A DNA stretch of 64,000 bases. Origin: Candidatus Heimdallarchaeota archaeon. Its GTDB lineage: Archaea > Asgardarchaeota > Heimdallarchaeia > Heimdallarchaeales > Heimdallarchaeaceae. The stretch's first letter is position 1, and every line of letters starts with the position of its first letter. The stretch covers positions 32,001 through 96,000 of the forward strand of contig JAHLWR010000010.1 of NCBI GenBank assembly GCA_019057815.1. The letters run 5' to 3'. A model generated the notes under the pieces. The model searched no databases and had not been told where the DNA came from. It saw nothing but the letters and a program-made list of their open reading frames with translations. Shown here piece after piece: positions 622 through 28,965 of the stretch. The position numbers and the translations under genes are program-made.

Positions 622-2169
622 TTGATTTTCACCTTGAAGAATGTAATGATATTTTCTTTTATCAAGAATCTAACAAGATTTAATTATGAAAATGACTTAA
701 ACTATATAATGATCTTTTCCAAAGATGTAATAAGAAACAAAATCAGCTTACTTAACATAGAGCAAAGCATATTTTCAGATGGTGATATTAATAATATACT
801 AGAAACTCGGAAGGAATTTTCACGTTCTCTCTTTCTTCTATCTAATCTAGAAGAAACTAACATTGATTCAATGAATGAAATTGAAAAATTAATTCTCCTA
901 TTCAAGGAAATTGTTGGATTAGAACTATTGGTAAGGTTCAATGTAAGAGAAAAGATTAGAAGGATTTTTTCACGGAGAATATCGCTTTTACTCTCCACTA
1001 GAAAAGAACAACTTGAGATGATTCGAAATCAACTAGATGTCTTGTATATTTTAAGAAGTGATGTCGCACATACTTTATCGATAAATAAAAGTGAAGAATT
1101 TAGTTTTTATTATGGAAATGATATAGTTAAAGCAATACATTTTGCAAACTCTTACCACAAATTAGCACTTGTACGAATGTTCTTTACAGAAAAGAAGATT
1201 ATTGACAAGACATCTTTAGTACTAAAACTTAATGAATTTGATAAGCTTTCAAAGACAGATACAGATAAAAAATTGGACGTTCCTTTACCGCAATACAATT
1301 CAATTCTAAGTAAAGAATTATATCGACTTACAGGTATTGAATCAAGTTCTTCAAGACAAGCTTTCAGTTTTAAATTACCTGAAGAAAGAGAGAAGTATTA
1401 TTTAGGATTGAATTCACATGGAGGTTTAATCACACCTGTACATTCTTCTCTAGATAATTTCGAATACTTCTATGGAGATAAAGAAAATTTTACTGCAGAA
1501 TCACGAATTGTACCTTCAACCAAAGTATGGAATGAATTTATATCTCTGATTAAAGTGAAATTAAAGGAAATACAAATCCTAGAACCTAAACGACTAAGAA
1601 TCGTGTCAAAAACGCATAAATCAGTGTTATTCTTTATAGGATATTACTTTTCCAAAACAAAAAACACTATTGTTATATCAGATATTGACGGAAAAGAAAT
1701 TGATCTTAAACCTTATACTATCAATGTTGATTCTGAACAGTATTGGGACATAAAAAATCAAAACTTAAAACGTACTGATTCAGAAGCTGTTTTAATTCTA
1801 AATATTACTGGACATATTGATCAAATTGTACAAAATGAACATGAAAAACTGAATATTTTAGATCTCCCAAAAATTATATGTAAAATAAAATTAGAAGATT
1901 CTGTGTTGAGTCCAACGAATCAAAAGTTATACAGTTCTGAATTCATTCATAGAGCATGTAGAGCTCTTGAGCTTTATCTAAATAATAATATTCAAACCAG
2001 ATCTTTGAGGAAGATTCACCTATTTGTAAAATCCAGAGGTATTTTTACAATATTGCTTGGTATGCATATGAGATTACTAAATTACGAAGTAGTTCATTAT
2101 GAATTTGGTCGTGAAGACATTCATCAGGATAAAGAAGAATATTATCGAGTATTTAGTAGTCTTAAGTGA
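622..2169 (+). CDS. SAVED-domain protein with uncharacterised helical N-terminal domain
   Basis: C-terminal half has the two CARF-like SAVED lobes: RLRIVSKTHKSVLFFIGYYF, EAVLILNITGHI, KIHLFVKSRGIFTILLGMHM..VVHYEF..EEYYRVF. True start may be downstream of the TTG at 622. Confidence 0.7.
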   Translation: MIFTLKNVMIFSFIKNLTRFNYENDLNYIMIFSKDVIRNKISLLNIEQSIFSDGDINNILETRKEFSRSLFLLSNLEETNIDSMNEIEKLILLFKEIVGLELLVRFNVREKIRRIFSRRISLLLSTRKEQLEMIRNQLDVLYILRSDVAHTLSINKSEEFSFYYGNDIVKAIHFANSYHKLALVRMFFTEKKIIDKTSLVLKLNEFDKLSKTDTDKKLDVPLPQYNSILSKELYRLTGIESSSSRQAFSFKLPEEREKYYLGLNSHGGLITPVHSSLDNFEYFYGDKENFTAESRIVPSTKVWNEFISLIKVKLKEIQILEPKRLRIVSKTHKSVLFFIGYYFSKTKNTIVISDIDGKEIDLKPYTINVDSEQYWDIKNQNLKRTDSEAVLILNITGHIDQIVQNEHEKLNILDLPKIICKIKLEDSVLSPTNQKLYSSEFIHRACRALELYLNNNIQTRSLRKIHLFVKSRGIFTILLGMHMRLLNYEVVHYEFGREDIHQDKEEYYRVFSSLK

Positions 2170-19470: not shown

Positions 19471-20997
19471 TTACTTTGAGACAAACCTAGCATTCTGTTT
19501 TATCTTTGGATATTTCTGAATATTATCTAGATCTTTAAGAGATTTTAGAACAACATAGTATTCACTTTTTAGTTTAAATATCTCATAGGGAAACTTAAAG
19601 GGTTTTAATTTAACACCTTGTTTCTTCTCTTTTTTGGTTATAAAAAGTTCCATATGGTCAATCTTTTCAGCTTCTTCAGGTAATTTTGGAGGGACGATTG
19701 TCCTTGTTACAGTAATTTTTTTAGGTATTTTGTCCTCAAATTTCTTTGTGGTAACTGGTTTTTCTTTTAAGAGTTTATTCATTTCACTTAAATCCTTTGT
19801 CTCTCTTTTACCTTGATCATCGAAAAATTCTGCTATTATTTCCTTTTTCAGAATATCTCTACCTTTTGGAATTTGAATAAAACCAACATCACAATCTTGC
19901 ACAGATTGTTTTTCCTTCCATTCCAAGGGAGCAGATTCAATCCAATTTTTCGCAATTTCTTCTAATTCACTTAATGAATTGTTAGAAAGCTTTATTCCGA
20001 CTTCAAATCCTTCATCCAATCCTCTCTTCTCAAAATTCGCTGTCATTACTATACCAAGTTCATTTTCTGAATCCATGATAAATTTAGCGTGAAGATATTT
20101 GTAAGCTAAAATCCTTACACCGTTTTTTGCAGCTGCTTCAACAAACGGATAATTTTTTTCCTTTGGTCTAGTTAGAATTGTAAGTTTTTTCTCTTTACAA
20201 AAATTAATCAAATCTTGTGCAATTTCATGTTTAATGTCAAAACTGTAACTAGATATAATTAGTTCGGAAGAAGCATTTTTGATTAATTTAGAAATTTCTT
20301 CTTTAAGAGTTCTAGAGGAATAAGAAGTATTGATAATGGCATCTTTTGCACTAATATCTTTGAGTTTAATAGTTTTAACATCATCCCAATGCCCTATTCT
20401 TGTAAGTTCTTGTTTACTTTCTAACCAGAAGCCTTTACGAAAAAGGTTGAAAAGGCTTGATGTTTCATCTTTATCTAATATTATTCCTATCTCTTGATTT
20501 CTAGTTAAAGCTTCTTTGGTAAAGTTTGCAGTTGATAAAAATCCTTTCTTATTTTCTGTAGTTGGATCAATGAGCAAAAATTTAGCATGTAGATGTTCAC
20601 TTGTTCTTGCTAGTACTTTACCTGTAAGTTTACTCAACATCATTTTGTGTTCTTCTAAGGTTTTTTTATCGAAATCAGATTGTTCATCTTTGTATTCTTT
20701 CTCAAGTTGAGCATCTGTAGAAAATAAAAGATAACACCTTACACCTCTTTCACTTGCATTAATAATTGATTTAATAATTCTAGTATCACTTAAAATAAAT
20801 GAGCACAACATTACAGTATGTTTTGCGCTTTTGATTGCCCCAATTAACAACTTATGGAAATCATCAGATTCATTTCCAATTTGAATGACCGTAGAGAAGG
20901 TTGTTGAATCTATTTTTCTATGTCTTCTTTCTTTCCAATGCGCTGGAATTGTATACTCGTATTGATAACTATTGTTTTGTTCTTTTTCTTTAATCAA
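19471..20997 (-). CDS. Phospholipase D-superfamily protein with two HKD modules (putative nuclease)
   Basis: HLHAKFLLID..STANFT..NQEIG and YLHAKFIMD..MTANFE..FEVG; no TM helices, unlike cardiolipin synthase. Confidence 0.85.
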   Translation of the reverse strand: MIKEKEQNNSYQYEYTIPAHWKERRHRKIDSTTFSTVIQIGNESDDFHKLLIGAIKSAKHTVMLCSFILSDTRIIKSIINASERGVRCYLLFSTDAQLEKEYKDEQSDFDKKTLEEHKMMLSKLTGKVLARTSEHLHAKFLLIDPTTENKKGFLSTANFTKEALTRNQEIGIILDKDETSSLFNLFRKGFWLESKQELTRIGHWDDVKTIKLKDISAKDAIINTSYSSRTLKEEISKLIKNASSELIISSYSFDIKHEIAQDLINFCKEKKLTILTRPKEKNYPFVEAAAKNGVRILAYKYLHAKFIMDSENELGIVMTANFEKRGLDEGFEVGIKLSNNSLSELEEIAKNWIESAPLEWKEKQSVQDCDVGFIQIPKGRDILKKEIIAEFFDDQGKRETKDLSEMNKLLKEKPVTTKKFEDKIPKKITVTRTIVPPKLPEEAEKIDHMELFITKKEKKQGVKLKPFKFPYEIFKLKSEYYVVLKSLKDLDNIQKYPKIKQNARFVSK

Positions 20998-22096
20998 AAG
21001 AAATAACCTCCTCTAATAACATGTCTTCTGGAGCCTTGAGAAACCAATATTTTTGAGAACCAAATTCAAGTTCGTCAAGAAGTTCATCCCTTTTTGGTAT
21101 ATCTAGTTTAAAATCTTTTAAATCAGAGAATTCATCAAGCATTTCTTTCCATTGAATTTCATACTGATTACCTACAAGATATAGGAAGCATTTACGTTCT
21201 AAAAATATAGTTTTAGCCCATAATATCGCACTTATCTGACAATCTGGAAAGATTGAAACATCATAAAATTTTACTTGTGAAAAATTGCCTAAATCTCCAA
21301 GTTTAATGCTCTTTTTATCAAAGTTTTTTAGAAAACTATTTACCTCAGATAATTGCAAATTTGAAGGATTCTGAGGAATTCTCCATCTCTTTAGGTCTGC
21401 ATTGGGTGAGATTATTTTAAGTAACTGATCAACCAAAAGTTTGTGTTCATATCCTTCAGGGAATGGAAAAGAAAATTCCTTGTTTTGGATAACTACTTTA
21501 GATTTCCATTTTCCTTCAGAATAAGTAAGAAGGATATCTAAATTTACCACCGAATTTCTATTAACTATTCCTATCTTATTTATTTCATGTATATCCACCA
21601 ATCTTGGCCGTTTTTCAAGTGTTCTAAGTTTAGTACCTTCTGTTTTTAAAACATGATTAGGTAAGACAATTTTTTTCTCTGTTCTCCCGTCTAGAGATTC
21701 TTTTAATTCTCTATCCAAATTTGGGTCTAATCTTTTAAAATCAATAATCACTTGTGGCAATAAAACATCTTTGACTGTTCGAATTTCAAAAGCACCTTCA
21801 TCTGGTGTTAAAATAGTCTCTTCTTCTAGTGCCTCAAATCCTCTGGGAGACAAAGAATAATCACTATCAATCAAATCTAATATCTTTAGTTCTTCTAGTA
21901 TATTTATAACAAATTTCTCTGAAAAACTTTGAAACAAGGTCTTATTCATATATTTAACCGAATTTTCTTTCTTTTCTTCAGCTTCTTGAACTGCTTTAAG
22001 AAGTGGTAAAAGTTCTGGTCTTCTTTCACTTATAAAAACACTCATCCTTACTGAATAAGAGACACTAGATATCTGTCTTTTTAGTACTATTCTCAT
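20990..22096 (-). CDS. Hypothetical protein (possible N-terminal winged helix) in the viperin operon
   Basis: 368-aa ORF translationally coupled between helicase and PLD; 'ILEELKILDLIDSDYSLSPRGFEAL' resembles a wHTH wing. Confidence 0.7.
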   Translation of the reverse strand: MRIVLKRQISSVSYSVRMSVFISERRPELLPLLKAVQEAEEKKENSVKYMNKTLFQSFSEKFVINILEELKILDLIDSDYSLSPRGFEALEEETILTPDEGAFEIRTVKDVLLPQVIIDFKRLDPNLDRELKESLDGRTEKKIVLPNHVLKTEGTKLRTLEKRPRLVDIHEINKIGIVNRNSVVNLDILLTYSEGKWKSKVVIQNKEFSFPFPEGYEHKLLVDQLLKIISPNADLKRWRIPQNPSNLQLSEVNSFLKNFDKKSIKLGDLGNFSQVKFYDVSIFPDCQISAILWAKTIFLERKCFLYLVGNQYEIQWKEMLDEFSDLKDFKLDIPKRDELLDELEFGSQKYWFLKAPEDMLLEEVISFD

Positions 22097-22102
22097 TTTA
22101 TC

Positions 22103-24877
22103 TCACCATATTTTTTTAGATTCAACTCTTTCAGCAAGTTGCTGCAAAATTTCTGACCTTTTTTGAATCTCCTTGAACAATTTTTTATTTCCAACGATAA
22201 CTAGTTGATACTTTGCTCTTGTTAATGCTACATTTAATCTATTAGGAGTATCTAAGAATCCCAATCCTCTACTTCTAACTAGTGATAAATATACAATATC
22301 AGCTTCATGACCTTGAAAGCGATCAACGGCACATAGTTCAATCACTACATTTTTTTCAGGAAGATAAAAAGTTCTAGTTCTTCTACTTTTTAAATAAGAT
22401 TGAAGTTTTTTTCTGATTAAATTTTCTTGACTAAGATAAAAGGGTAATATTGCAATTTTCCAAGGTTTATTATCCTTCCTTCTGTTATCCGAAGTCCACA
22501 TTAAAAGATCTTTGATTTCTTTTATTATTGCATTTGCTTCCTTGGAATTACTATTTTTATGTGATTGATTGATTTCTCTGTTTGAAAGCCTTATGTCAAT
22601 CCAAACTATCCTATTTTTGTAATTAGGATATTCAAATTGCCTTTCTTCTGAGATATATTGGGGGTCTTGTAATGCTTCATTATCATAGAAAAATTCTCGT
22701 GGAAAACTAGATATACTAGGATGCATTCGATGTTGAAACCTTAAAATCTTATGACGGTGTTTCATTACATTTTTAACGGGTAGCCCATCAGTTATTATCA
22801 ATCCAATATCCTTTTCTTTTTGAGATTGACTCCTCTCAAAACCCTTCTGTAGAAGTTCAATAATGGAAGGAAATGCTAATCTTTTTACTTGATCCAAATC
22901 AGATAGAAATTTTGTCCTTCTAATGTCACTCCAATGATTTGGAATTAATTTTTCTATTTGCTTCTTGTATCTGTTATCCACAAGACTCCTTAACTCATAA
23001 TCACGAACTAATCGCCAACCTATAGCCTCACTCCATGTTTGATCATTTGATATCTTGAGATTAATCTCATAATTTTCTTTCAGAACCATTCTTATTTTTC
23101 TTTTCCATCTTCTAAGATCATCATACAGAGAAGATAACTCTATTGGTTGTAAAGAACTTGCATCGTGTTCTACATAAGAATTTATACTCAGAGGAAGAAA
23201 TTCTTCGTTTTTTTCGAAATCTGCCTTTGTTCCAAATATAATAGAAGCACCGAGTAAATTATAAAATTCCATTTTATTCAAATCTGATAGTACATAGTAG
23301 GGGATAGTACTTGGAATAAGTTTTTCTAGAAGTTCATCATTATGCAATGGTTTAGCTAACAGTTTCAAACACTTGATTGTATGATTTTTGTTAATTTTCT
23401 GGATTTCTTCAAAATTATTGACTAATGCAATTATATTTCCTTCTTCAGGAGCAAAGGTTATAATATTACTGACAACACCGTCTTCATCAACATAAGGTGG
23501 AAGCTGTTTTATATCTCCTACAATTATATGACGTTCTGCAATTAAAGCAGGAACAAGAAATTCTTGAAAAGTTGTTTTACTAGCTTCATCAAGAATTAAT
23601 ATATCATAAGGTCTCATTGATGCTGTTTTACCTTCAAACCTTAATTTCTCAATTTCTGGATGTTTAAGAATACCAATGGTTGTTCCACAAACTAAATTTG
23701 CAGCTCTTACAAACACACGTTTCATATAATCGGGAGTTGTTTTCTCATCAGATTCTAAAATTCCTAACATCATATCTTGTGATTCAGTTTTGTTCTTAAT
23801 TGATCTCAAATTTTTTCTCAATTTTTCCTTCTCAGTTTCCCAAAAAGAATCAAGCTGATATTCAGTTGCCAAATCTGATATTCTGTCTGTTTTACCAATT
23901 CTAATAGGAAGAACATACTGTTTAACTTTTTCATAAACATCTGAATCTTCATCCATAAGTTTCTCTATCACATTGTCTACTGCTACATGAGTTGAAGCTA
24001 CAAGTAGAATTTTTAAGTCTCTTTTTAACGCTTGGTAAATTAGCTCACATATAGTTGTTGTTTTTCCTGAACCAGGAGGACCCTCTAAAATTGCTAGGTC
24101 AGGAGTACCAAGAGCAATTTTAACAAATTCTCTTTGATCTACATTGCCTGACCTAAGATCGTCTGTCAAAAATAACCACTCATTATTTCGAATTGGATGA
24201 GGAATAACATCATCAAATTTTACAGTTCTTATATTTTCGAATAGTCTAATCAGATTTCTGTTGTGTTTAAGAGGACGATTTAGGAGTTGCTCTAGAGATT
24301 GGTTGATCACATCAAGTTGATACAAGTTTGGTCTTAAATATAATCTCATTCTGTTTCTTTTATTATTGATATCCTCTTTTTTTAGTACTAGTATGTCATA
24401 TGGAGGGTATGTTGCTAAGACTTTGATACTTCTTGGATTTTCTAGATGTTTAGTGGGAAAAACTTCTTTTGAATTCAAAAACTGTTCTTTTTTATGCTGA
24501 TAGGTTTCTAAACCCTCGCTATTCTGGGGTTCTATACATTTATATAAGACCCCTCTTCCATTAGTAGATAGCTTAGTTACTCGATCTAGTTGTTTTTTCA
24601 ATCTTTTTTTTCGTTTGATTTCCTTTTTATCATAACCTCCTAAATAGAGATCGTTTTCAGTTGTATAGTCCTCAAGCAGATAAAACTCCTCAGTCATTAA
24701 ATCTTCTACTTCAAACCTCTCTACAGTAATATATATTCGCTTAACTCTTGACGTATACATTATTCTATCAATAAAACGGAAATATGGTTTAATTCCATGG
24801 AGTGTTGTCCACATAATTGATTTTACATCTCTTTCAGATAACCTCTCATCTAAGTTCTCATAATAAAGAAAAGACAT
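22103..24877 (-). CDS. SF1B helicase, UPF1/DNA2/NAM7-like (AAA_11+AAA_12)
   Basis: GPPGSGKTT, ASTHVAVDN, ILDEAS, VGDIKQLPP, QHRMHP.I, VDRFQGHEAD, RLNVALTRAK. Confidence 0.93.
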   Translation of the reverse strand: MSFLYYENLDERLSERDVKSIMWTTLHGIKPYFRFIDRIMYTSRVKRIYITVERFEVEDLMTEEFYLLEDYTTENDLYLGGYDKKEIKRKKRLKKQLDRVTKLSTNGRGVLYKCIEPQNSEGLETYQHKKEQFLNSKEVFPTKHLENPRSIKVLATYPPYDILVLKKEDINNKRNRMRLYLRPNLYQLDVINQSLEQLLNRPLKHNRNLIRLFENIRTVKFDDVIPHPIRNNEWLFLTDDLRSGNVDQREFVKIALGTPDLAILEGPPGSGKTTTICELIYQALKRDLKILLVASTHVAVDNVIEKLMDEDSDVYEKVKQYVLPIRIGKTDRISDLATEYQLDSFWETEKEKLRKNLRSIKNKTESQDMMLGILESDEKTTPDYMKRVFVRAANLVCGTTIGILKHPEIEKLRFEGKTASMRPYDILILDEASKTTFQEFLVPALIAERHIIVGDIKQLPPYVDEDGVVSNIITFAPEEGNIIALVNNFEEIQKINKNHTIKCLKLLAKPLHNDELLEKLIPSTIPYYVLSDLNKMEFYNLLGASIIFGTKADFEKNEEFLPLSINSYVEHDASSLQPIELSSLYDDLRRWKRKIRMVLKENYEINLKISNDQTWSEAIGWRLVRDYELRSLVDNRYKKQIEKLIPNHWSDIRRTKFLSDLDQVKRLAFPSIIELLQKGFERSQSQKEKDIGLIITDGLPVKNVMKHRHKILRFQHRMHPSISSFPREFFYDNEALQDPQYISEERQFEYPNYKNRIVWIDIRLSNREINQSHKNSNSKEANAIIKEIKDLLMWTSDNRRKDNKPWKIAILPFYLSQENLIRKKLQSYLKSRRTRTFYLPEKNVVIELCAVDRFQGHEADIVYLSLVRSRGLGFLDTPNRLNVALTRAKYQLVIVGNKKLFKEIQKRSEILQQLAERVESKKIW

Positions 24878-25758
24878 TAGCTAACACTCCTTGGCTTGAG
24901 ATTCCAGTTATAAATTCCACCACGTTTCTTGAATTTTTCATAGTGCCAACCTACTTGTTGAATTGCTGAATAAGGGTCTACTTCAAGAATAGATAGACTA
25001 TATTTCAGATAACCCTCAGAGTTCTGAAAAAACCTACCCATAGCGTCAAGCATAAGATAAGAACCTCTCATAAGTTCATTATTCTCTGCAATGGGATTCA
25101 ATGATTCATGCTTCTGTACAAAATTGTCAAATTGCTCTGATGATATCTGAAGAGACTGAAAATATTCATCATTCTGACCTTTTACAGATAATACTTGGAA
25201 TACTTTCCATCTTTGAGGATTGAGTTCAATAATCAAATCAGTCATCTCTTCTTCCCAGTTCATACTAGTAACAACAGTATTGATTTTAAGTTTGATACCA
25301 GCTGTATGAATTACTTTTACTATTTCTTTAATCTTTTGGATATGATTTCCTGAACCTCTTCCAAGTTTATATTGTGTTTCTTCTTTTGAACTATCTAAAC
25401 TTAAAGCAATCCAATCTATGTAAGATTTGTACTCTTCGATAAAATTACCCGTTAGTAATGAACCACTTGTTATCAGCATTGTTGTCATATCTAGCTTTTT
25501 AGCTTCTATTATTAAATCTCCTAAATGAGGACAGAGTAACGGTTCTCCACCTGTAAGAGATAATTTCTCTGTTCCTGCAGAATTGAGGATTGAAGGTATT
25601 TTTAGTGCTTCTTCTTTTGATAATAAAGATTTTATCTCATTAAAGGTTCCAAAACAGAATTTGCATTTATTCGTACATCTAGGCCACAAATGCCAGTTTA
25701 CACTTATCAAAGGAAAAGAGGAATTATTAAGACAAGAATAATTCTCTTTCATTTTCAT
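24877..25758 (-). CDS. rsad2: Viperin (RSAD2-like antiviral radical SAM ddhNTP synthase)
   Basis: SVNWHLWPRCTNKCKFCF, GGEP, KINTVV, PQRWKVFQ, ENNELMRGSYLMLD..GRF and C-terminal FKKRGGIYNW, all viperin-specific motifs (cf. animal SVNYHFTRQCNYKCGFCF..FLKRGGKYIW). Confidence 0.93.
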   Translation of the reverse strand: MKMKENYSCLNNSSFPLISVNWHLWPRCTNKCKFCFGTFNEIKSLLSKEEALKIPSILNSAGTEKLSLTGGEPLLCPHLGDLIIEAKKLDMTTMLITSGSLLTGNFIEEYKSYIDWIALSLDSSKEETQYKLGRGSGNHIQKIKEIVKVIHTAGIKLKINTVVTSMNWEEEMTDLIIELNPQRWKVFQVLSVKGQNDEYFQSLQISSEQFDNFVQKHESLNPIAENNELMRGSYLMLDAMGRFFQNSEGYLKYSLSILEVDPYSAIQQVGWHYEKFKKRGGIYNWNLKPRSVS

Positions 25759-26228
25759 TAATGAGTAGCTCCTAGGATTATATCAGATTTTGATAGATTC
25801 ACGAAATTTGACTGTTTGAAAAAGAAGAAATCAGTCGCTTCAGTTGCTAGATTTCCATTAGCTATTTTATAAGGAAACACTCTATTGAAGTCTAAATCAT
25901 AAAACATTGTTTGAAATTCTCTAAATCTGTCGTTCGAAAGAATAGCAGTATCTAATTCTCTAGCGTAAGCTAGTATAGCTATGTCATCATATATTCTTGG
26001 GTCAAGTAAAAGAACATCATCATCCTCTTGAAATCTTTTCTTGAATTTCTTGAATCCTGGTAAAATAAAGAGTGGCGATACTCCATTATTCTTTGCCCAA
26101 ATTCGGACATAATCAATATTATGAAGATTGCTTTCTCCTTTTGGATGTTTTATAACATTAAGTCCATCAACTATTAAGATATTTTTTTGGTTTTCTCTTT
26201 TTGTTTTTCGTTTTGTTTGGAGTTGCAT
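25758..26228 (-). CDS. NYN/PIN ribonuclease of the Zc3h12a (Regnase-1/N4BP1)-like type
   Basis: ILIVDGLNV..YDDIAIL.YA....AILSNDRFREF..RVFPYKI; all four catalytic Asp present. ATG at 26228 is the likely start; TAATG overlap with viperin. Confidence 0.8.
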   Translation of the reverse strand: MQLQTKRKTKRENQKNILIVDGLNVIKHPKGESNLHNIDYVRIWAKNNGVSPLFILPGFKKFKKRFQEDDDVLLLDPRIYDDIAILAYARELDTAILSNDRFREFQTMFYDLDFNRVFPYKIANGNLATEATDFFFFKQSNFVNLSKSDIILGATH

Positions 26229-26335
26229 TAAATATACAAAGAAGAACAAGATATTAAAAGTTTTTCTTTTATATTTAAAATTAATATTGTATTATACAAA
26301 ACAATCTTTTTAAATATGTCTGCTCTCACAACATT
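26228..26335. promoter_or_regulatory. Divergent promoter region with candidate operator palindromes
   Basis: TTGTAT-T-ATACAA perfect inverted repeat at 26287-26299. Imperfect IR TTAAATATACAAAGAAGAAC / GTTTTTCTTTTATATTTAA at 26228-26278. TATA-like TTTTAAATA upstream of the CARF gene. Confidence 0.45.
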
Positions 26336-26980
26336 ATGCGCAACTTGCATATTGCGACTGTTGGTAAATCACCTGGTCCAATCATTGAAGGAATTAGAGT
26401 ATATCCTATTGATGATTTGTATATGTTGTATAATGAGGGGTCCCATAAGGAAGCTTTAGAAATAAAAAAATCAGCAATCAATTGGAAGCTTAAGTGCAAC
26501 ATGATTGAGGTTGATCAATTTGATATCGAAAATATTTTTGTTACAATCCTGTTGATTCAAAAACGAAACCTTGGAAGTAAAATTTACATAAACGTAACAG
26601 GAGGTACAAAAATAATGTCAAACGCAGCTTTTCTTGCAGGATATCTAATAGGTGCTACTATTTATTATATTAGAGAAGCTCAAGAAAATGAATCTCTTCA
26701 AGATTGTGTTATTGAGCTTCCTGTACCTAAAATACAATTAGATGACATCGATGAAAATCAACAAAAAATTTTGTCTCATTTGCTAAAAAATAATGGAAAG
26801 ATAACGACAGGAACTACAGAACTAAGTAAGAACCTTCATTTAAAACCTCAATTAATAAGTTATCATCTTAAAAGATTGGAAATTGCTAATCTAATCATAA
26901 ACGAAAAAAAAGGAAGAATAAATATTATAAGTTTAACAAGCGCAGGTAGGTTTGCAGCAAAATACCATGGTATTTTATAA
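26336..26980 (+). CDS. CARF + winged-HTH transcriptional regulator (Csa3/DUF6293-like)
   Basis: HIATVG.SP..I..GI, INVTGGTKIM (CARF); C-terminal ELSKNL..KPQLISYHLKRLE..LI..LTSAGR (ArsR/MarR wHTH). Confidence 0.85.
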   Translation: MRNLHIATVGKSPGPIIEGIRVYPIDDLYMLYNEGSHKEALEIKKSAINWKLKCNMIEVDQFDIENIFVTILLIQKRNLGSKIYINVTGGTKIMSNAAFLAGYLIGATIYYIREAQENESLQDCVIELPVPKIQLDDIDENQQKILSHLLKNNGKITTGTTELSKNLHLKPQLISYHLKRLEIANLIINEKKGRINIISLTSAGRFAAKYHGIL

Positions 26981-26999
26981 ATTTGAGAGATGGAAAATA

Positions 27000-27950
27000 T
27001 TGAATATTCTCATCACAGGAGGTTTGGGTTTTATTGGTTCTCATCTTGTTAAATTCCTTTTAGAAAAAACAGAGAACAATTTAATCATTTTAGATAACTT
27101 ATCAACTGGTAAGAAATCAAATATTTACAATCTGGTTAATAAAGAGAATATCTCCAGAGTAGAAATTATTAAGGAAACAGTTGAAAATGTAGACCAAATA
27201 AAGCTAAAAAATATTTCAAAAATATTCCATTTGGCAAGTCATGCTAGTCCAACAGATTTTAGAAAACACTCTCTAGAAATTATGATGACTAACTCTATTG
27301 GAACAAAGAAAGTTTTAGATATAGCGCTTAAGAACAATGCTACATTCATCTTAGCTTCAACATCTGAAATATACGGTAATCCATTAATTCATCCACAAAA
27401 CGAAGATTATTATGGTAACGTTAATACACTAGGAATAAGAGCATGTTATGATGAATCTAAGCGTTTTTCGGAAACACTTTCGATGATTTATAAAAGAGAT
27501 AAAAATTTGGATGTTAGAATTCTTAGAATTTTCAACACATATGGAACTAATATGAGACTTAATGACGGGAGAGTTATACCAACTTTCTTGAAACAAGCAT
27601 TAACAGGTAACCCCATAACTGTCAGAGGGGATGGAAAACAATCAAGATCGTTATGTCATGTTTCTGACCTTATAAATGGGATTTATTTGATTTCGGTTAT
27701 TAAAAACATTAAATACAATGTGTACAACATTGGGAATCCAGAAGAAATAGAAATAATCGAGTTAGCTGAAATGATAAAAAAAATGACTTGTTCATGTTCG
27801 AAAATCAAATATATAGAGGAATTAGACGATGAACCTCGAAGAAGAAGACCGGATATTAATAGAATAAAGGACGAAACAGGTTGGTCACCCACTATTTCGT
27901 TAAGGGAGGGACTTAAGAAGATTATACCACATTACAAAGAGATGTTATAA
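27000..27950 (+). CDS. UDP-glucuronate decarboxylase-like SDR (UXS family)
   Basis: TGGLGFIGSHL, HLASHASP, ASTSEIYG.P..HPQ.E.YYGNVN..G.RACYDESKR, RIFNTYG..M..NDGRV. TTG start at 27000 is likely. Confidence 0.88.
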   Translation: MNILITGGLGFIGSHLVKFLLEKTENNLIILDNLSTGKKSNIYNLVNKENISRVEIIKETVENVDQIKLKNISKIFHLASHASPTDFRKHSLEIMMTNSIGTKKVLDIALKNNATFILASTSEIYGNPLIHPQNEDYYGNVNTLGIRACYDESKRFSETLSMIYKRDKNLDVRILRIFNTYGTNMRLNDGRVIPTFLKQALTGNPITVRGDGKQSRSLCHVSDLINGIYLISVIKNIKYNVYNIGNPEEIEIIELAEMIKKMTCSCSKIKYIEELDDEPRRRRPDINRIKDETGWSPTISLREGLKKIIPHYKEML

Positions 27951-27966: not shown

Positions 27967-28965
27967 GTGGCAGCAATTTCAGTTAAAAACAATAAATTTG
28001 CTAATATTGACAAACAAAATTCTTTAGTTATTGATGTGACCTATAAATGTAATTCTAGCTGTTATTACTGTCAATGGGGAGAATCAAGGAAATCGTCAAA
28101 GGAAATAAATTATGAGAAATTACTTGTTCCTGAAAAAACTTTGTCATCTATAGGTATTGAGCGAGTTGTTCTTTCAGGAGGAGAACCACTTCTTCATAAT
28201 AGAATAATAGACATAATAGATTATTACAACCAGAAAAAAGTTGATTCCATTATCTTATTAACAAATGGAATATTATTAGATCTGTCAAAACTTCAACTAT
28301 TGTTAAAGCATGGAGTGACTGGAATGACTTTCTCAATTGATTCACTTGATTTTGAAGTCATGAAAAAATCCAGAAACGTTACAAAAGAAGTACACCAAAA
28401 AATTATCAATAATATTAATTCGATTGTGAAATTTCGAGAAACCAAAAGTTTTGAATTGGGAATAAATTGCGTTATCTCCTCTTCCAATTTGCGTTGGGAT
28501 TATCTTCATCCTCTTGTTCAGTTTTGTAATCAAAACAACATTGATTGGCTGAAATTTCAGCCAATTTTTGACGATGGTTATCTATCGTTAAATGCACCTC
28601 AACTTAAACTGAGTAAGAATCATTCGGAAGACGTCATTGAAATAGGAAAAAAGATACTAAATTTTGCAACAATAAACACCAATAGTATAGAATTCTGGAA
28701 ATCACTTTCATCGGTTTTGCATGGTAAAAAACTTCTAGGTAAGTCATGTGGGCTAGTTAAAAGACAAACTATTCTAATTAGAGGGGATTTGAAATTTTGC
28801 TATTGGTTAGATAATCCAATTTACTCTTCATGTTCTATGGAATTAACTAAAGAGAAAATTCAAGAAATAAGAGATAAATTTAAAGATTCAAAAGAAAGGT
28901 GTAAAACAGGAATGTATTGTTTCTGTCTACAATCTTTATCACATAAATGGGATATTTCAAAATGA
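27967..28965 (+). CDS. Radical SAM protein with C-terminal Cys cluster
   Basis: CNSSCYYC, SGGEPLL, TNG, SIDS; C-terminal C..FC..C...CFC. Confidence 0.88.
   Translation: MAAISVKNNKFANIDKQNSLVIDVTYKCNSSCYYCQWGESRKSSKEINYEKLLVPEKTLSSIGIERVVLSGGEPLLHNRIIDIIDYYNQKKVDSIILLTNGILLDLSKLQLLLKHGVTGMTFSIDSLDFEVMKKSRNVTKEVHQKIINNINSIVKFRETKSFELGINCVISSSNLRWDYLHPLVQFCNQNNIDWLKFQPIFDDGYLSLNAPQLKLSKNHSEDVIEIGKKILNFATINTNSIEFWKSLSSVLHGKKLLGKSCGLVKRQTILIRGDLKFCYWLDNPIYSSCSMELTKEKIQEIRDKFKDSKERCKTGMYCFCLQSLSHKWDISK

What the first reader, a model, noticed from the sequence alone, without database searches (positions are those of the whole stretch)
26228..26980. CARF-wHTH regulator controlling a non-CRISPR locus via a shared divergent promoter
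Seen: a Csa3-like CARF+wHTH gene lies 107 bp from the head of the viperin operon and leads the sugar operon. The spacer holds TTGTAT-T-ATACAA (26287-26299) and a longer imperfect IR (26228-26278). Established: Csa3 dimers bind cyclic oligoadenylate and palindromic operators to regulate cas genes. Inference: viperin expression may be induced by a nucleotide alarm such as cOA from a remote type III CRISPR or a product of this cluster, making it an 'interferon-like' inducible regulon. The palindromes are AT-rich and could be chance.
Basis: partly seen in the sequence, partly recalled or inferred. Interest (0 to 1): 0.72.

Follow-up and report, generated by a model that had tools for sequence, protein, structure and literature searches.

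The report
Sensor-regulator switch of Asgard viperin operon
In an Asgard (Heimdall-group) archaeon, a small nucleotide-sensor-plus-DNA-binding protein sits head to head with an antiviral viperin/helicase/nuclease operon, and both this gene pairing and two docking sites between the genes are kept in distant relatives, so it is very probably the on/off switch of that defence operon, though its signal is not yet known.

Summary
Gene 26336-26980 (+) encodes a Csa3-like CARF + winged-helix protein of the CARF3 / HFX_2341 type. It lies 107 bp from the head of a NYN RNase - viperin - SF1 helicase - X - PLD operon. TTGTATTATACAA is at 26287-26299.

The palindrome alone is not significant in this 30% GC DNA. 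Comparison with relatives gives the evidence:
- The divergent pairing of the CARF-wHTH gene with pVip-helicase-X-PLD recurs in all 8 class genomes with enough flank, in about 6 distinct metagenome contigs, and rearranged in Lokiarchaeia, including cultured MK-D1.
- The spacer has a conserved ungapped layout: TATA (operon), 15-bp palindrome 1, 5 nt, palindrome 2, TATA (regulator). The site centres are 20 bp apart.

This is the same layout as the Csa3b operators of Sulfolobus.

The link to the sugar genes occurs only in this genome.

The signal is unproven. For cOA (probably cA4):
- an invariant NVTGGTK pocket like Card1/Can2;
- a remote type III CRISPR whose Cas10 has an intact GGDD motif;
- cOA-effector genes beside the regulator in sister loci.

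Against an obligatory CRISPR link: no Cas10 was found in MK-D1 or several other carriers.

I found no paper describing this. The scan has noted the same module on other DNA (e1-548325, e1-905832).

Verdict: a new variant of a known kind.

The parts
26336..26980 (+). CARF + winged-helix regulator gene (214 aa), CARF3 / HFX_2341-type, Csa3-like fold. Pocket loops are A7-T8-V9-G10-K11-S12 and N86-V-T-G-G-T-K92. The predicted recognition helix is about residues 171-183 (PQLISYHLKRLEI).
26286..26300 (.). Operator site 2: aTTGTAT-T-ATACAAa (core 26287-26299), centre 26293, 43 nt before the regulator's ATG. It abuts the BRE position of the regulator's promoter.
   Evidence: Identical 13-mer in L033. 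Same column in L036, L037, L075 and L076. TTTTATAATACAA at -43 in L026. No difference in a ~95%-identical contig.
26266..26280 (.). Operator site 1: CTTTTAT-A-TTTAAAA, centre 26273, 45 nt before the operon's ATG and 20 bp from site 2. The right half is degenerate here (4 of 7). The consensus in relatives is CTTTTAT-N-ATAAAAG.
   Evidence: The close relative reads CTTTTATATTAAAAG.
26251..26259 (-). Probable TATA box of the NYN-viperin operon (ATATTAAAA on +, TTTTAATAT on -), centre about 27 nt before ATG 26228. This fits a leaderless or near-leaderless mRNA.
   Evidence: Nearly invariant block in six lineages. Genome-wide, TATA-like words peak 25-30 nt before ATGs. Inferred; no TSS data.
26306..26317 (+). 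Probable TATA box of the regulator gene (TTTTTAAATAT), centre about 24 nt before ATG 26336.
   Evidence: Identical in L033. Positional genome-wide pattern. Inferred.
25758..26228 (-). First operon gene: NYN/Zc3h12a-like RNase (156 aa from ATG 26228).
   Evidence: Pfam PF11977, E 8e-7. A NYN-pVip pair also occurs in MK-D1.
24877..25758 (-). Prokaryotic viperin (pVip), a radical SAM enzyme.
   Evidence: NF038283 288 bits (cut-off 180). PADLOC pVip E 1e-83.
22103..24877 (-). SF1 (UPF1/MkoA-like) helicase, 924 aa.
   Evidence: AAA_11/AAA_12. PADLOC MkoA E 1.7e-89, partial.
20990..22096 (-). Conserved protein X (368 aa) with a winged helix at residues 25-93. The rest has no PDB match.
19471..20997 (-). 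PLD-family nuclease (DrmC/MkoB-like), 508 aa.
   Evidence: PLDc_2 E 1e-27. PADLOC DrmC, and MkoB E 1.7e-9.
26967..27950 (+). NAD-dependent sugar epimerase/dehydratase directly after the regulator gene. Start is ATG 26967, or more canonically TTG 27000. This neighbour is not conserved in orthologous loci.

Best explanation
The gene encodes a dimeric, ligand-sensing transcription factor dedicated to the divergent promoter region between itself and the NYN-viperin-helicase-X-PLD defence operon.

I infer that two dimers occupy two tandem 15-bp palindromes (26266-26280 and 26286-30; centres 20 bp apart, so on the same face of the DNA). Each palindrome abuts the BRE/TATA of one of the two back-to-back, probably leaderless promoters.

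By analogy with Csa3b, I think the unliganded protein most likely holds both promoters down. Csa3b has the same layout of two tandem palindromic repeats just upstream of BRE/TATA and acts as a repressor. Binding of a cyclic oligoadenylate-type ligand (best guess cA4) in the CARF dimer pocket would then relieve this, so that potentially self-harmful enzymes are made only on alarm. The Gly-x-Ser loop and Lys92 may also let the protein slowly destroy the ligand and reset.

- **Shown:** the domain architecture and fold; the conserved synteny; the conserved operator layout; the conserved pocket motif; a type III CRISPR elsewhere in the genome.
- **Inferred:** DNA binding at these sites; the sign of regulation; the ligand and its source.
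For: 1. **Architecture.** CARF3 full-length match E 4.6e-50. The confident model's best full-length PDB matches are Csa3 (6wxq, 2wte, 6w11).
2. **Synteny.** The regulator gene occurs in 13 of 83 genomes of the class. All 8 with enough flank have it next to the module: 7 divergently (G000, G005, G073, G072, G045, G042, G037) and G034 on the same strand. The pairing is also on metagenome contigs L075-L079 and L084-L086, and rearranged in Lokiarchaeia including MK-D1.
3. **Operators.** In an ungapped alignment of six lineages, identity to the window is 72-90% inside three blocks (TATA, site 1, site 2) and 30-55% outside. The 13-mer is identical in L033, where the proteins are 53% identical. A shared word of at least 13 nt anywhere occurs in 53 of 2000 shuffles.
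4. **Half-sites change with the recognition helix between clades.** PQLxSY goes with TTGTAT. KQNxSY goes with TTT(T/G)TAT..AAAAG. xQxMxRY goes with GTTTA(T/C). SPQIxSY goes with TTTGAT.
5. **The exact palindrome is unique in the 3.7-Mb genome.** This fits a local regulator.
6. **Pocket.** N86, G90 invariant, G89, T91 nearly invariant, K92 kept in all module-linked clades. NVTGGTKIMSNAAF is nearly the same as Card1's NITGGTKIMSLAAF. The best PDB profile match is the Can2 CARF domain (E 1e-14). K92 aligns with catalytic K169 of ring nuclease Sis0811.
7. **Signal context.** Cas10 with GGDD and HD plus a CRISPR array on contig C20. Two SAVED proteins and no CD-NTase. In sister loci the regulator is followed by a Can2-like nuclease or a split CARF-PIN. 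Cas10 was found in 6 of 13 regulator-bearing genomes against 8 of 70 others.
8. **Precedents.** Csa3b represses through two tandem palindromic repeats just upstream of BRE/TATA (PMC5389559). Family namesake HFX_2341 behaves as a repressor (PMC11434293). pVip was the one defence protein not seen in the proteome of a Lokiarchaeum culture (bioRxiv 10.64898/2026.02.13.705702).
Against: - There are no binding, ligand or transcript data.
- The sites are AT-rich and TATA-like, so they could be promoter elements rather than operators.
- I defined the conserved blocks after seeing the alignment, and related sequences are not independent. The statistics are therefore descriptive.
- Site 1 is degenerate in this window.
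- No Cas10 was found in complete MK-D1, in isolate Roseivirga spongicola (which has a helicase-X-PLD-CARF operon) or in G072, G073 and G008 (82-90% complete). A CRISPR source of the ligand is therefore not general.
- Csa3a with cA4 showed no specific DNA binding in vitro (PMC8699464).
- Sites upstream of BRE are often activator sites in archaea, so the sign of regulation is open.
Confidence: 0.7

Rival explanations
1. Same regulator and same operators, but it is an activator. Ligand-bound dimers upstream of BRE recruit TFB/TBP to both promoters, as proposed for Csa3a at CAPPa.
For: Both sites lie just upstream of the inferred BRE/TATA and do not cover the TATA or the start. The Csa3a motif CAPPa lies 12 bp upstream of BRE and is linked to activation (PMC8699464).
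Against: Csa3b has the closer layout (two tandem palindromes abutting the basal promoter) and represses. In the Loki-type loci a perfect palindrome, TTTGATAATCAAA, abuts the regulator's own ATG. That is a repressor position. HFX_2341 represses.
Confidence: 0.25
2. The ligand does not come from CRISPR. [quoted passage not shown]
For: The module is present without a detectable Cas10 in complete MK-D1 and in several MAGs. A bacterial helicase-X-PLD-CARF-Card1-like operon occurs in a genome without a Cas10 hit. The CoCoNuT precedent has CARF regulators of non-CRISPR defence superoperons with UPF1-like helicases (PMC11090510). MK-D1 is reported to have CBASS type II.
Against: The pocket motif is that of the cA4-activated nucleases Card1 and Can2. 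This genome has a cyclase-competent Cas10 and no SMODS-type CD-NTase. Cas10 is more frequent among carriers. No cyclase-like domain was found in X. Absence of Cas10 from MAGs is weak evidence.
Confidence: 0.3
3. The protein is mainly a ring nuclease (Crn1-like CARF + wHTH) that switches off cOA signalling. The palindromes are ordinary promoter elements of two back-to-back promoters.
For: G10-K11-S12 and K92 match the Ser/Lys pair needed for cA4 cleavage in Sis0811. Sis0811 is the best phmmer hit in the PDB. The palindromes are TATA-like and are not significant alone.
Against: CARF3 models fit far better than CARF7 (E 4.6e-50 against 6e-12). Card1 has the same Ser/Lys pair and does not cleave cA4. 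The G/C positions of site 2 are conserved and are not TATA-like. The 20-bp two-site spacing and the change of half-site with recognition helix point to a bound protein. Separate conserved TATA blocks sit at the usual distance from each ATG. The two roles can also coexist.
Confidence: 0.12
4. It is a global regulator like HFX_2341, and its position next to the viperin operon is incidental.
For: The Pfam family is HFX_2341_N. HFX_2341 affects many genes in Haloferax.
Against: The regulator is patchy (13 of 83 genomes) and travels with the module in every locus with enough flank. The exact operator occurs once in the genome.
Confidence: 0.05

Closest known systems
Csa3b of Sulfolobus/Saccharolobus (SSO1444, SiRe0765) and its Pcas operators (PMC5389559)
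   Same: Both are CARF + wHTH proteins encoded beside the operon they control. In both, two tandem imperfect palindromic repeats lie immediately upstream of BRE/TATA, and the operator sequence is conserved with the protein's clade.
   Different: The target here is not a cas cassette but a viperin / NYN RNase / helicase / PLD operon. The operator is about 15 bp, TTTkTAT-N-ATAmAAA, not TTTTC-N8-GAAAA. Here the sites serve two divergent promoters. Csa3b needs Cascade for full repression. The host is an Asgard archaeon, not Sulfolobales. The pocket motifs differ (TGGTK, not G-h-R).
Csa3a (Sso1445; PDB 2WTE, 6W11, 6WXQ) with the CAPPa palindrome (PMC8699464)
   Same: Best full-length structural matches (TM 0.61-0.66). 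A dimeric CARF pocket that binds cA4. A palindrome just upstream of BRE/TATA.
   Different: About 16% identity. Csa3 motifs 1 and 2 are not kept. TIGR01884 scores 52.1 bits, under its cut-off of 60.2. Csa3a lacks the ring-nuclease lysine, which this protein has. Csa3a regulates adaptation genes and CRISPR leaders.
HFX_2341 of Haloferax mediterranei (Pfam PF19810 / DUF6293; PMC11434293)
   Same: The N-terminal domain family matches over Pfam's threshold. It is a Csa3-like CARF + wHTH protein, not encoded in a cas locus, and behaves as a repressor.
   Different: HFX_2341 is 308 aa, vertically inherited and global in effect. This protein is 214 aa, patchy in distribution and bound to one defence module.
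RtcR-like CARF regulators of CoCoNuT defence superoperons (PMC11090510)
   Same: A CARF-containing transcription factor predicted to switch on a non-CRISPR defence operon that includes a UPF1-like SF1 helicase and RNA-targeting nucleases.
   Different: RtcR-like proteins are CARF-AAA+-HTH sigma-54 activators in bacteria. This one is a minimal CARF-wHTH in archaea with defined palindromic operators.
Crn1 large ring nucleases Sso1393 / Sis0811 (CARF7 + wHTH; PMC9638899)
   Same: CARF + wHTH architecture. The Ser (G-x-S loop) and Lys (K92 aligned with K169) are both kept.
   Different: Sis0811 is 275 aa and belongs to the CARF7 clade. No DNA targets are known for those enzymes. Here there are conserved operators and CARF3 affinity.

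Membership tests
Csa3 (NCBIfam TIGR01884 cas_HTH) | N-terminal CARF Rossmann-like domain plus C-terminal winged helix in one ~200-aa protein | tested here: met
   Pfam and PADLOC domain hits. Model with pLDDT 90.9. Foldseek top full-length hits are Csa3 6wxq, 2wte and 6w11.
Csa3 (NCBIfam TIGR01884 cas_HTH) | Score over the curated family cut-off | tested here: not met
   52.1 bits against a cut-off of 60.2.
Csa3 (NCBIfam TIGR01884 cas_HTH) | Csa3 pocket motifs: T-h-G-F-(N/D)-E-x4-R and L-x2-G-h-R (PMC8699464) | tested here: not met
   Here the loops read A-T-V-G-K-S-P-G and N-V-T-G-G-T-K. Only T-h-G and the Gly are shared.
Csa3 (NCBIfam TIGR01884 cas_HTH) | Encoded next to cas genes (type I-A) | tested here: not met
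   The only cas locus found is type III, on another contig (C20). The neighbours here are viperin-operon and sugar genes.
CARF3 clade (Makarova 2020 classification, as carried by PADLOC models) | Best full-length match to a CARF3 profile | tested here: met
   PDLC01866 E 4.6e-50, residues 3-210 on model positions 2-206 of 207. CARF7 gives only 6e-12.
HFX_2341 / DUF6293 (Pfam PF19810 + PF22665) | N-terminal domain over the gathering score | tested here: met
   PF19810 51 bits against 30.
HFX_2341 / DUF6293 (Pfam PF19810 + PF22665) | C-terminal DUF6293 winged helix over the gathering score | tested here: inconclusive
   PF22665 26.7 bits against 27. Relatives carry the precomputed hit.
Crn1 large ring nuclease (CARF7 + wHTH) | Catalytic Ser in the beta1-alpha1 loop and Lys at the pocket floor (S12 and K169 of Sis0811) | tested here: met
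   K92 aligns with K169 in the HMMER alignment. G10-K11-S12 lies in the beta1-alpha1 loop of the model. The same pair also occurs in the non-cleaving Card1.
Crn1 large ring nuclease (CARF7 + wHTH) | cA4 phosphodiesterase activity | not testable with these tools
   Needs an enzyme assay.
Csa3b-type operator architecture (works like, not membership) | Two tandem palindromic repeats immediately upstream of BRE/TATA of the adjacent operon, conserved with the regulator | tested here: met
   Sites at 26266-26280 and 26286-26300, 20 bp centre to centre, conserved in six lineages. Compare PMC5389559.
cOA-responsive CARF sensor | A cOA synthase (Cas10 with GGDD) in the same genome | tested here: met
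   810-aa Cas10 on C20 with VGGDDL and LHDIG, Csx7/Csx10 RAMPs, Cas1, Cas6 and a CRISPR array. This is not general: no hit in MK-D1, G072, G073 or G008.
cOA-responsive CARF sensor | Binds a cyclic oligoadenylate | not testable with these tools
   Only motif likeness to Card1, Can2 and Csm6 is available.
Prokaryotic viperin (target operon) | Score over the NF038283 cut-off | tested here: met
   288.4 bits against 180.
Mokosh type I (target operon) | MkoA helicase plus MkoB PLD as a two-gene system | tested here: inconclusive
   The MkoA models match part of the helicase (E 1.7e-89). MkoB gives only 1.7e-9, and DrmC models fit the PLD better. A conserved third gene, X, lies between them.

The most novel reading that the evidence does not exclude
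The CARF sensors that travel with the viperin / helicase-X-PLD module (this regulator, plus the Can2-like, CARF-PIN and stand-alone CARF genes of sister loci) may respond to a signal that does not come from CRISPR. The signal would be made by the module itself or arise from RNA damage during infection. The whole set would then be a self-contained, signal-induced innate immune regulon. It would be shared by Asgard archaea and some bacteria and would place viperin under an alarm-inducible switch, as in animals.
Probability: 0.25. Interest if true: 0.85.

Novelty: new variant of a known kind. Interest (0 to 1): 0.62.

Why it matters
Viperin is a classic interferon-induced gene in animals, and Asgard viperins are argued to be ancestral to the eukaryotic ones (PMC11291487). 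How prokaryotic viperins are controlled is essentially unknown.

A conserved nucleotide-sensor regulator with defined operators in front of the viperin operon gives three things:
- a concrete, testable case of alarm-induced (or alarm-released) viperin expression in the closest archaeal relatives of eukaryotes;
- an extension of Csa3-type regulation beyond cas genes to a non-CRISPR defence operon;
- a link between type III CRISPR-style second-messenger signalling and viperin and a Mokosh-like helicase/nuclease set.

Because cultured MK-D1 carries a version of the module, the prediction can be tested in a living Asgard archaeon.

Tried and rejected
The contigs of the closest protein relatives (P0001-P0004, 72-96% identity) could not be fetched. 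One was seen only indirectly through read laying.
- **No RNA holder was listed** for this stretch, so there is no expression or TSS evidence.
It is present but is not conserved in L033 or other orthologues. I rejected it as the second operator. Its right arm is simply site 1.
- **A third half-site.** TATACAAA recurs at 26233-26240 but is not conserved, so I dropped it.
- **Palindromicity as a statistic.** In this AT-rich DNA, 5-of-6 or 6-of-7 palindromes are common, so I used conservation instead.
- **X as a possible signal synthase.**
  - Foldseek gave only very weak, low-TM rows, some of them to class III cyclases (prob under 0.2).
  - VIA-align found only a winged helix at residues 25-93.
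  - There is no support for a cyclase, but most of X remains unexplained.
- **A SMODS CD-NTase in this genome.** None was found.
- **ddhNTP or another product of the cluster as ligand.** Nothing in the data bears on it.
- **Literature searches** for viperin + CARF, Asgard + viperin + CARF, Mokosh + CARF, and viperin + helicase + PLD + winged helix found no description of this pairing. The CARF census paper (PMC7498327) is not held, so I could not check whether it lists this context.
- **Complex prediction was not used.** A Csa3-like homodimer would pass by likeness to solved structures.
Full report
**1. What is in the sequence**

The window is ~30% GC. It belongs to a 3.7-Mb, 95%-complete MAG whose nearest named relatives are Heimdallarchaeota, an Asgard group.

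ORF 26336-26980 (+) encodes 214 aa.
- Pfam gives HFX_2341_N (51 bits, cut-off 30), CARF_Card1 and Cas_APE2256, plus winged-helix families in the C-terminal third.
- PADLOC's CARF3 model PDLC01866 matches end to end (E 4.6e-50).
- NCBIfam's Csa3 model TIGR01884 stays under its cut-off (52.1 against 60.2).
- An AlphaFold model built on 22 relatives is confident (pLDDT 90.9). Its best full-length PDB matches are Csa3 with and without cA4 (6wxq, 2wte, 6w11; TM 0.61-0.66).

On the other strand, starting at ATG 26228, lie five genes:
- a NYN/Zc3h12a-like RNase;
- a viperin (NF038283, 288 bits against 180);
- an SF1 MkoA-like helicase;
- a conserved unknown protein, X;
- a PLD nuclease.

The spacer is 107 bp.

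**2. Is the palindrome more than chance?**

Alone, it is not.
- 41 of 100 shuffles of the window give a hit at up to 1 mismatch.
- By my own estimate an exact copy is expected about twice in the genome. It occurs once.

The evidence comes from relatives.

The regulator gene is patchy, present in 13 of 83 genomes of the class. In all 8 genomes where the contig gives enough flank it lies beside the same module:
- divergently from pVip-helicase-X-PLD in G000, G005, G073, G072, G045, G042 and G037;
- after helicase-X-PLD on the same strand in G034.

The same divergent pair is found on metagenome contigs L075-L079 and L084-L086.

In Lokiarchaeia (Promethearchaeum, including cultured MK-D1, and L091-L096) the regulator faces helicase-X-PLD, and a NYN-pVip pair lies downstream of it.

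Protein identity between these regulators falls to 27-40%, so this is long-standing linkage.

**3. Anatomy of the spacer**

Spacers from six lineages align without gaps over ~80 columns from the operon's start codon. These lineages are the window, L033, L036, L037, L075 and L076. Three blocks stand out:
- ATATTAAAA, 26251-26259 here;
- a 15-mer with consensus tCTTTTAT-A-ATAAAAg, 26266-26280 here;
- a second 15-mer, aTTTgTAT-T-ATAaAAg, 26286-26300 here.

Identity to the window is 72-90% inside the blocks and 30-55% outside. I defined the blocks after seeing the alignment, so this is descriptive.

- The two 15-mers are palindromes and also copies of each other. Their centres are 20 bp apart.
- Site 2 is letter for letter the same in L033. 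A shared word of at least 13 nt anywhere occurs in 53 of 2000 shuffles.
- In L026 (G008) TTTTATAATACAA sits at the same -43 position.
- In a ~95%-identical contig from another sediment run, site 2 and the adjacent TATA show no listed difference. Site 1 carries two changes (T26276A, A26280G) that make it a better palindrome, CTTTTATATTAAAAG.

Genome-wide, TATA-like words peak 25-30 nt before ATG codons.
- ATATTAAAA, read on the minus strand as TTTTAATAT with its centre about 27 nt before ATG 26228, fits the TATA box of a leaderless operon mRNA.
- TTTTTAAATAT (26306-26317) fits the TATA box of the regulator gene.
- Each palindrome then abuts the BRE position of one promoter.

Its right arm is site 1.

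**4. Do the sites belong to this protein?**

Four observations say yes.
- **Half-sites differ between clades and stay constant within them, together with the predicted recognition helix**.
  - PQL(I/V)SY goes with TTGTAT.
  - KQNxSY goes with TTT(T/G)TAT...AAAAG.
  - xQxMxRY goes with GTTTA(T/C).
  - SPQIxSY (Loki type) goes with TTTGAT.
- **A paralogous subfamily** (L031, L032) also has two palindromes about 21 bp apart before its own gene.
[quoted passage not shown] They are footprinted by Csa3b and needed for repression (PMC5389559).
- **The exact site occurs once in the genome**. This fits a dedicated local regulator rather than a global one like HFX_2341 (PMC11434293).

**5. Sign of regulation**

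This is inferred. I favour repression that is relieved by the ligand, for these reasons:
- the Csa3b and HFX_2341 precedents;
- in the Loki-type loci a perfect palindrome abuts the regulator's own start codon, which is a repressor position;
- the operon's products (a chain-terminator synthase, an RNase, a helicase-nuclease) are plausibly costly;
- pVip was the one defence protein not detected in the proteome of Lokiarchaeum strain B35. This is weak, and from another organism.

Activation from a site upstream of BRE, as for Csa3a and CAPPa, remains a serious rival.

**6. The ligand**

The pocket loops are under strong constraint.
- G10, N86 and G90 are invariant, and T8, G89 and T91 nearly so.
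- K92 is kept in every module-linked clade, though not in the L031/L032 paralogues.
- The motif NVTGGTKIMSNAAF is nearly that of Card1 (NITGGTKIMSLAAF). The best PDB profile hit is the CARF domain of Can2 (E 1e-14). Both are cA4-activated nucleases.
- K92 aligns with K169 of the ring nuclease Sis0811, and G10-K11-S12 supplies the matching serine. The protein may therefore also degrade its ligand, although Card1 has the same pair and does not.

This genome has a type III locus on another contig.
- Cas10 is 810 aa, with VGGDDL and LHDIG.
- The locus also has Csx7/Csx10-type RAMPs, Cas6, Cas1 and an array.
- The genome has two SAVED-domain proteins, one at 622-2169 of this window, and no SMODS CD-NTase.

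In sister loci the regulator gene is followed by typical cOA effectors:
- a Can2/Card1-like CARF-PD-DExK nuclease in L028;
- a CARF_m1-PIN split into two genes in L024, L025, L075, L077, L078 and L086.

Across the class, Cas10-like hits occur in 6 of 13 regulator-bearing genomes and 8 of 70 others. The odds ratio is 6.6 and Fisher p is 0.007, but kin are not independent and the MAGs are incomplete.

Against an obligatory CRISPR link:
- no Cas10 was found with either family model in the complete MK-D1 genome or in G072, G073 and G008 (82-90% complete);
- none was found in Roseivirga spongicola, a bacterium with a helicase(+S1)-X-PLD-CARF-Card1-like operon.

A cOA signal, most likely cA4, from the remote type III system is the best single guess here. 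A CRISPR-independent signal is a live alternative. Koonin's group proposed such a signal for RtcR-like CARF regulators of CoCoNuT superoperons with UPF1-like helicases (PMC11090510).

**7. The sugar genes**

The epimerase/dehydratase gene follows directly. Its start is ATG 26967, overlapping the regulator gene, or TTG 27000. TTG 27000 gives the canonical MNILITGGLGFIG. Read-through from the regulator's promoter is therefore possible.

Three points argue against a functional link:
- a TATA-like TTTTATAAAT spans the regulator's stop codon;
- no orthologous locus has these genes downstream;
- the ~95%-identical contig stops matching at 27074.

I treat this link as local and probably incidental.

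**8. Comparison and novelty**

By fold and domain order the protein is Csa3-like. It fails three defining features of Csa3 proper: the family cut-off, the pocket motifs and cas adjacency. It is better filed as a CARF3 / HFX_2341-type CARF-wHTH.

It works most like Csa3b. The new elements are these:
- the target is a non-CRISPR viperin plus Mokosh-like operon;
- one operator pair serves two divergent promoters;
- the host is an Asgard archaeon.

Papers on Asgard and archaeal defence report viperin and Mokosh separately and do not mention a CARF regulator (PMC11291487, PMC12988326). My searches found no description of the pairing.

The scan itself has noted the same module and an operator at a pVip/csa3 promoter on other genomes (e1-548325, e1-905832, e1-5597592). 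Those notes agree with what I found, but they are not independent evidence.

**Verdict.** The feature is real. It is very probably the dedicated, ligand-sensing switch of the viperin operon. The signal and the sign of regulation are still to be shown.

Noticed in passing
L025:10643-12249; L086:4697-6255; L028:8649-9869: In sister loci the regulator gene is followed on the same strand by cOA-effector-type genes. One version is a CARF_m1-PIN protein split into a ~170-aa CARF and a ~360-aa PIN-like gene. In L028 it is a 406-aa Can2/Card1-like CARF-PD-DExK nuclease.
   Followed up: partly
L046:1594-10119 (Roseivirga spongicola): A bacterial one-strand operon encodes an SF1 helicase with three S1 domains, a wHTH-containing X-like protein, a PLD, a 192-aa CARF and a Card1-like CARF-nuclease. 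No Cas10 hit was found in that genome. The helicase-X-PLD trio is therefore linked to CARF proteins across domains of life.
   Followed up: partly
L042:2836-11465 (Promethearchaeum syntrophicum MK-D1): The cultured Asgard archaeon carries a rearranged version. A 209-aa CARF3-like gene, helicase, X and PLD lie on one strand. The CARF-wHTH gene, followed by a NYN-pVip pair, lies on the other. No Cas10 was found with either model.
   Followed up: partly
window 20990-22096 (-): Protein X is conserved between helicase and PLD in all module loci. It has a confident model with a winged helix at residues 25-93, placed within a long beta hairpin. The rest has no convincing PDB match.
   Followed up: partly
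window 622-2169 (+) and G000:C46:73929-74465: The genome has two SAVED-domain proteins, one of them in this window with an unassigned ~290-aa N-terminal part. It has no SMODS CD-NTase. These are candidates for further receivers of the same alarm signal.
   Followed up: partly
window 26973-27000: A TATA-like TTTTATAAAT spans the regulator's stop codon, about 22 nt before TTG 27000. That is the most canonical start of the epimerase (MNILITGGLGFIG), so the sugar genes may have their own promoter.
   Followed up: no
window 27967-28965 (+): A second radical SAM gene lies in the sugar cluster. It resembles MoaA and viperin only weakly (NF038283 67.5 bits against a cut-off of 180) and sits beside an NDP-sugar dehydratase and a GT2 glycosyltransferase.
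   Followed up: no
L031:1484-2149 and L032:3865-4506: A paralogous CARF-wHTH (~30% identity) has SGGLS in place of TGGTK. It has two TTGAT-type palindromes about 21 bp apart before its gene. It faces small unknown genes plus an Nmad3-domain protein, and an Mrr nuclease lies downstream. This may be another defence cassette under a related switch with a different ligand.
   Followed up: partly
L007 (G000:C20:1-13211): The type III locus has Cas10, Csx7-like and Csx10-like RAMPs, Cas6 and Cas1. Its array has 37-nt repeats (GTTACCACCTCCTCTTTTGACGGAGCTAGAATGTAAC) and runs off the contig end. No CARF effector was seen on this short contig.
   Followed up: partly
window 25648-27074 against run X3 record 2: A ~95%-identical 3-kb contig matches only the NYN gene, the spacer, the regulator gene and ~95 nt beyond. 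Both flanks are unlike the window, so the NYN-regulator core appears to sit in a mosaic context.
   Followed up: no
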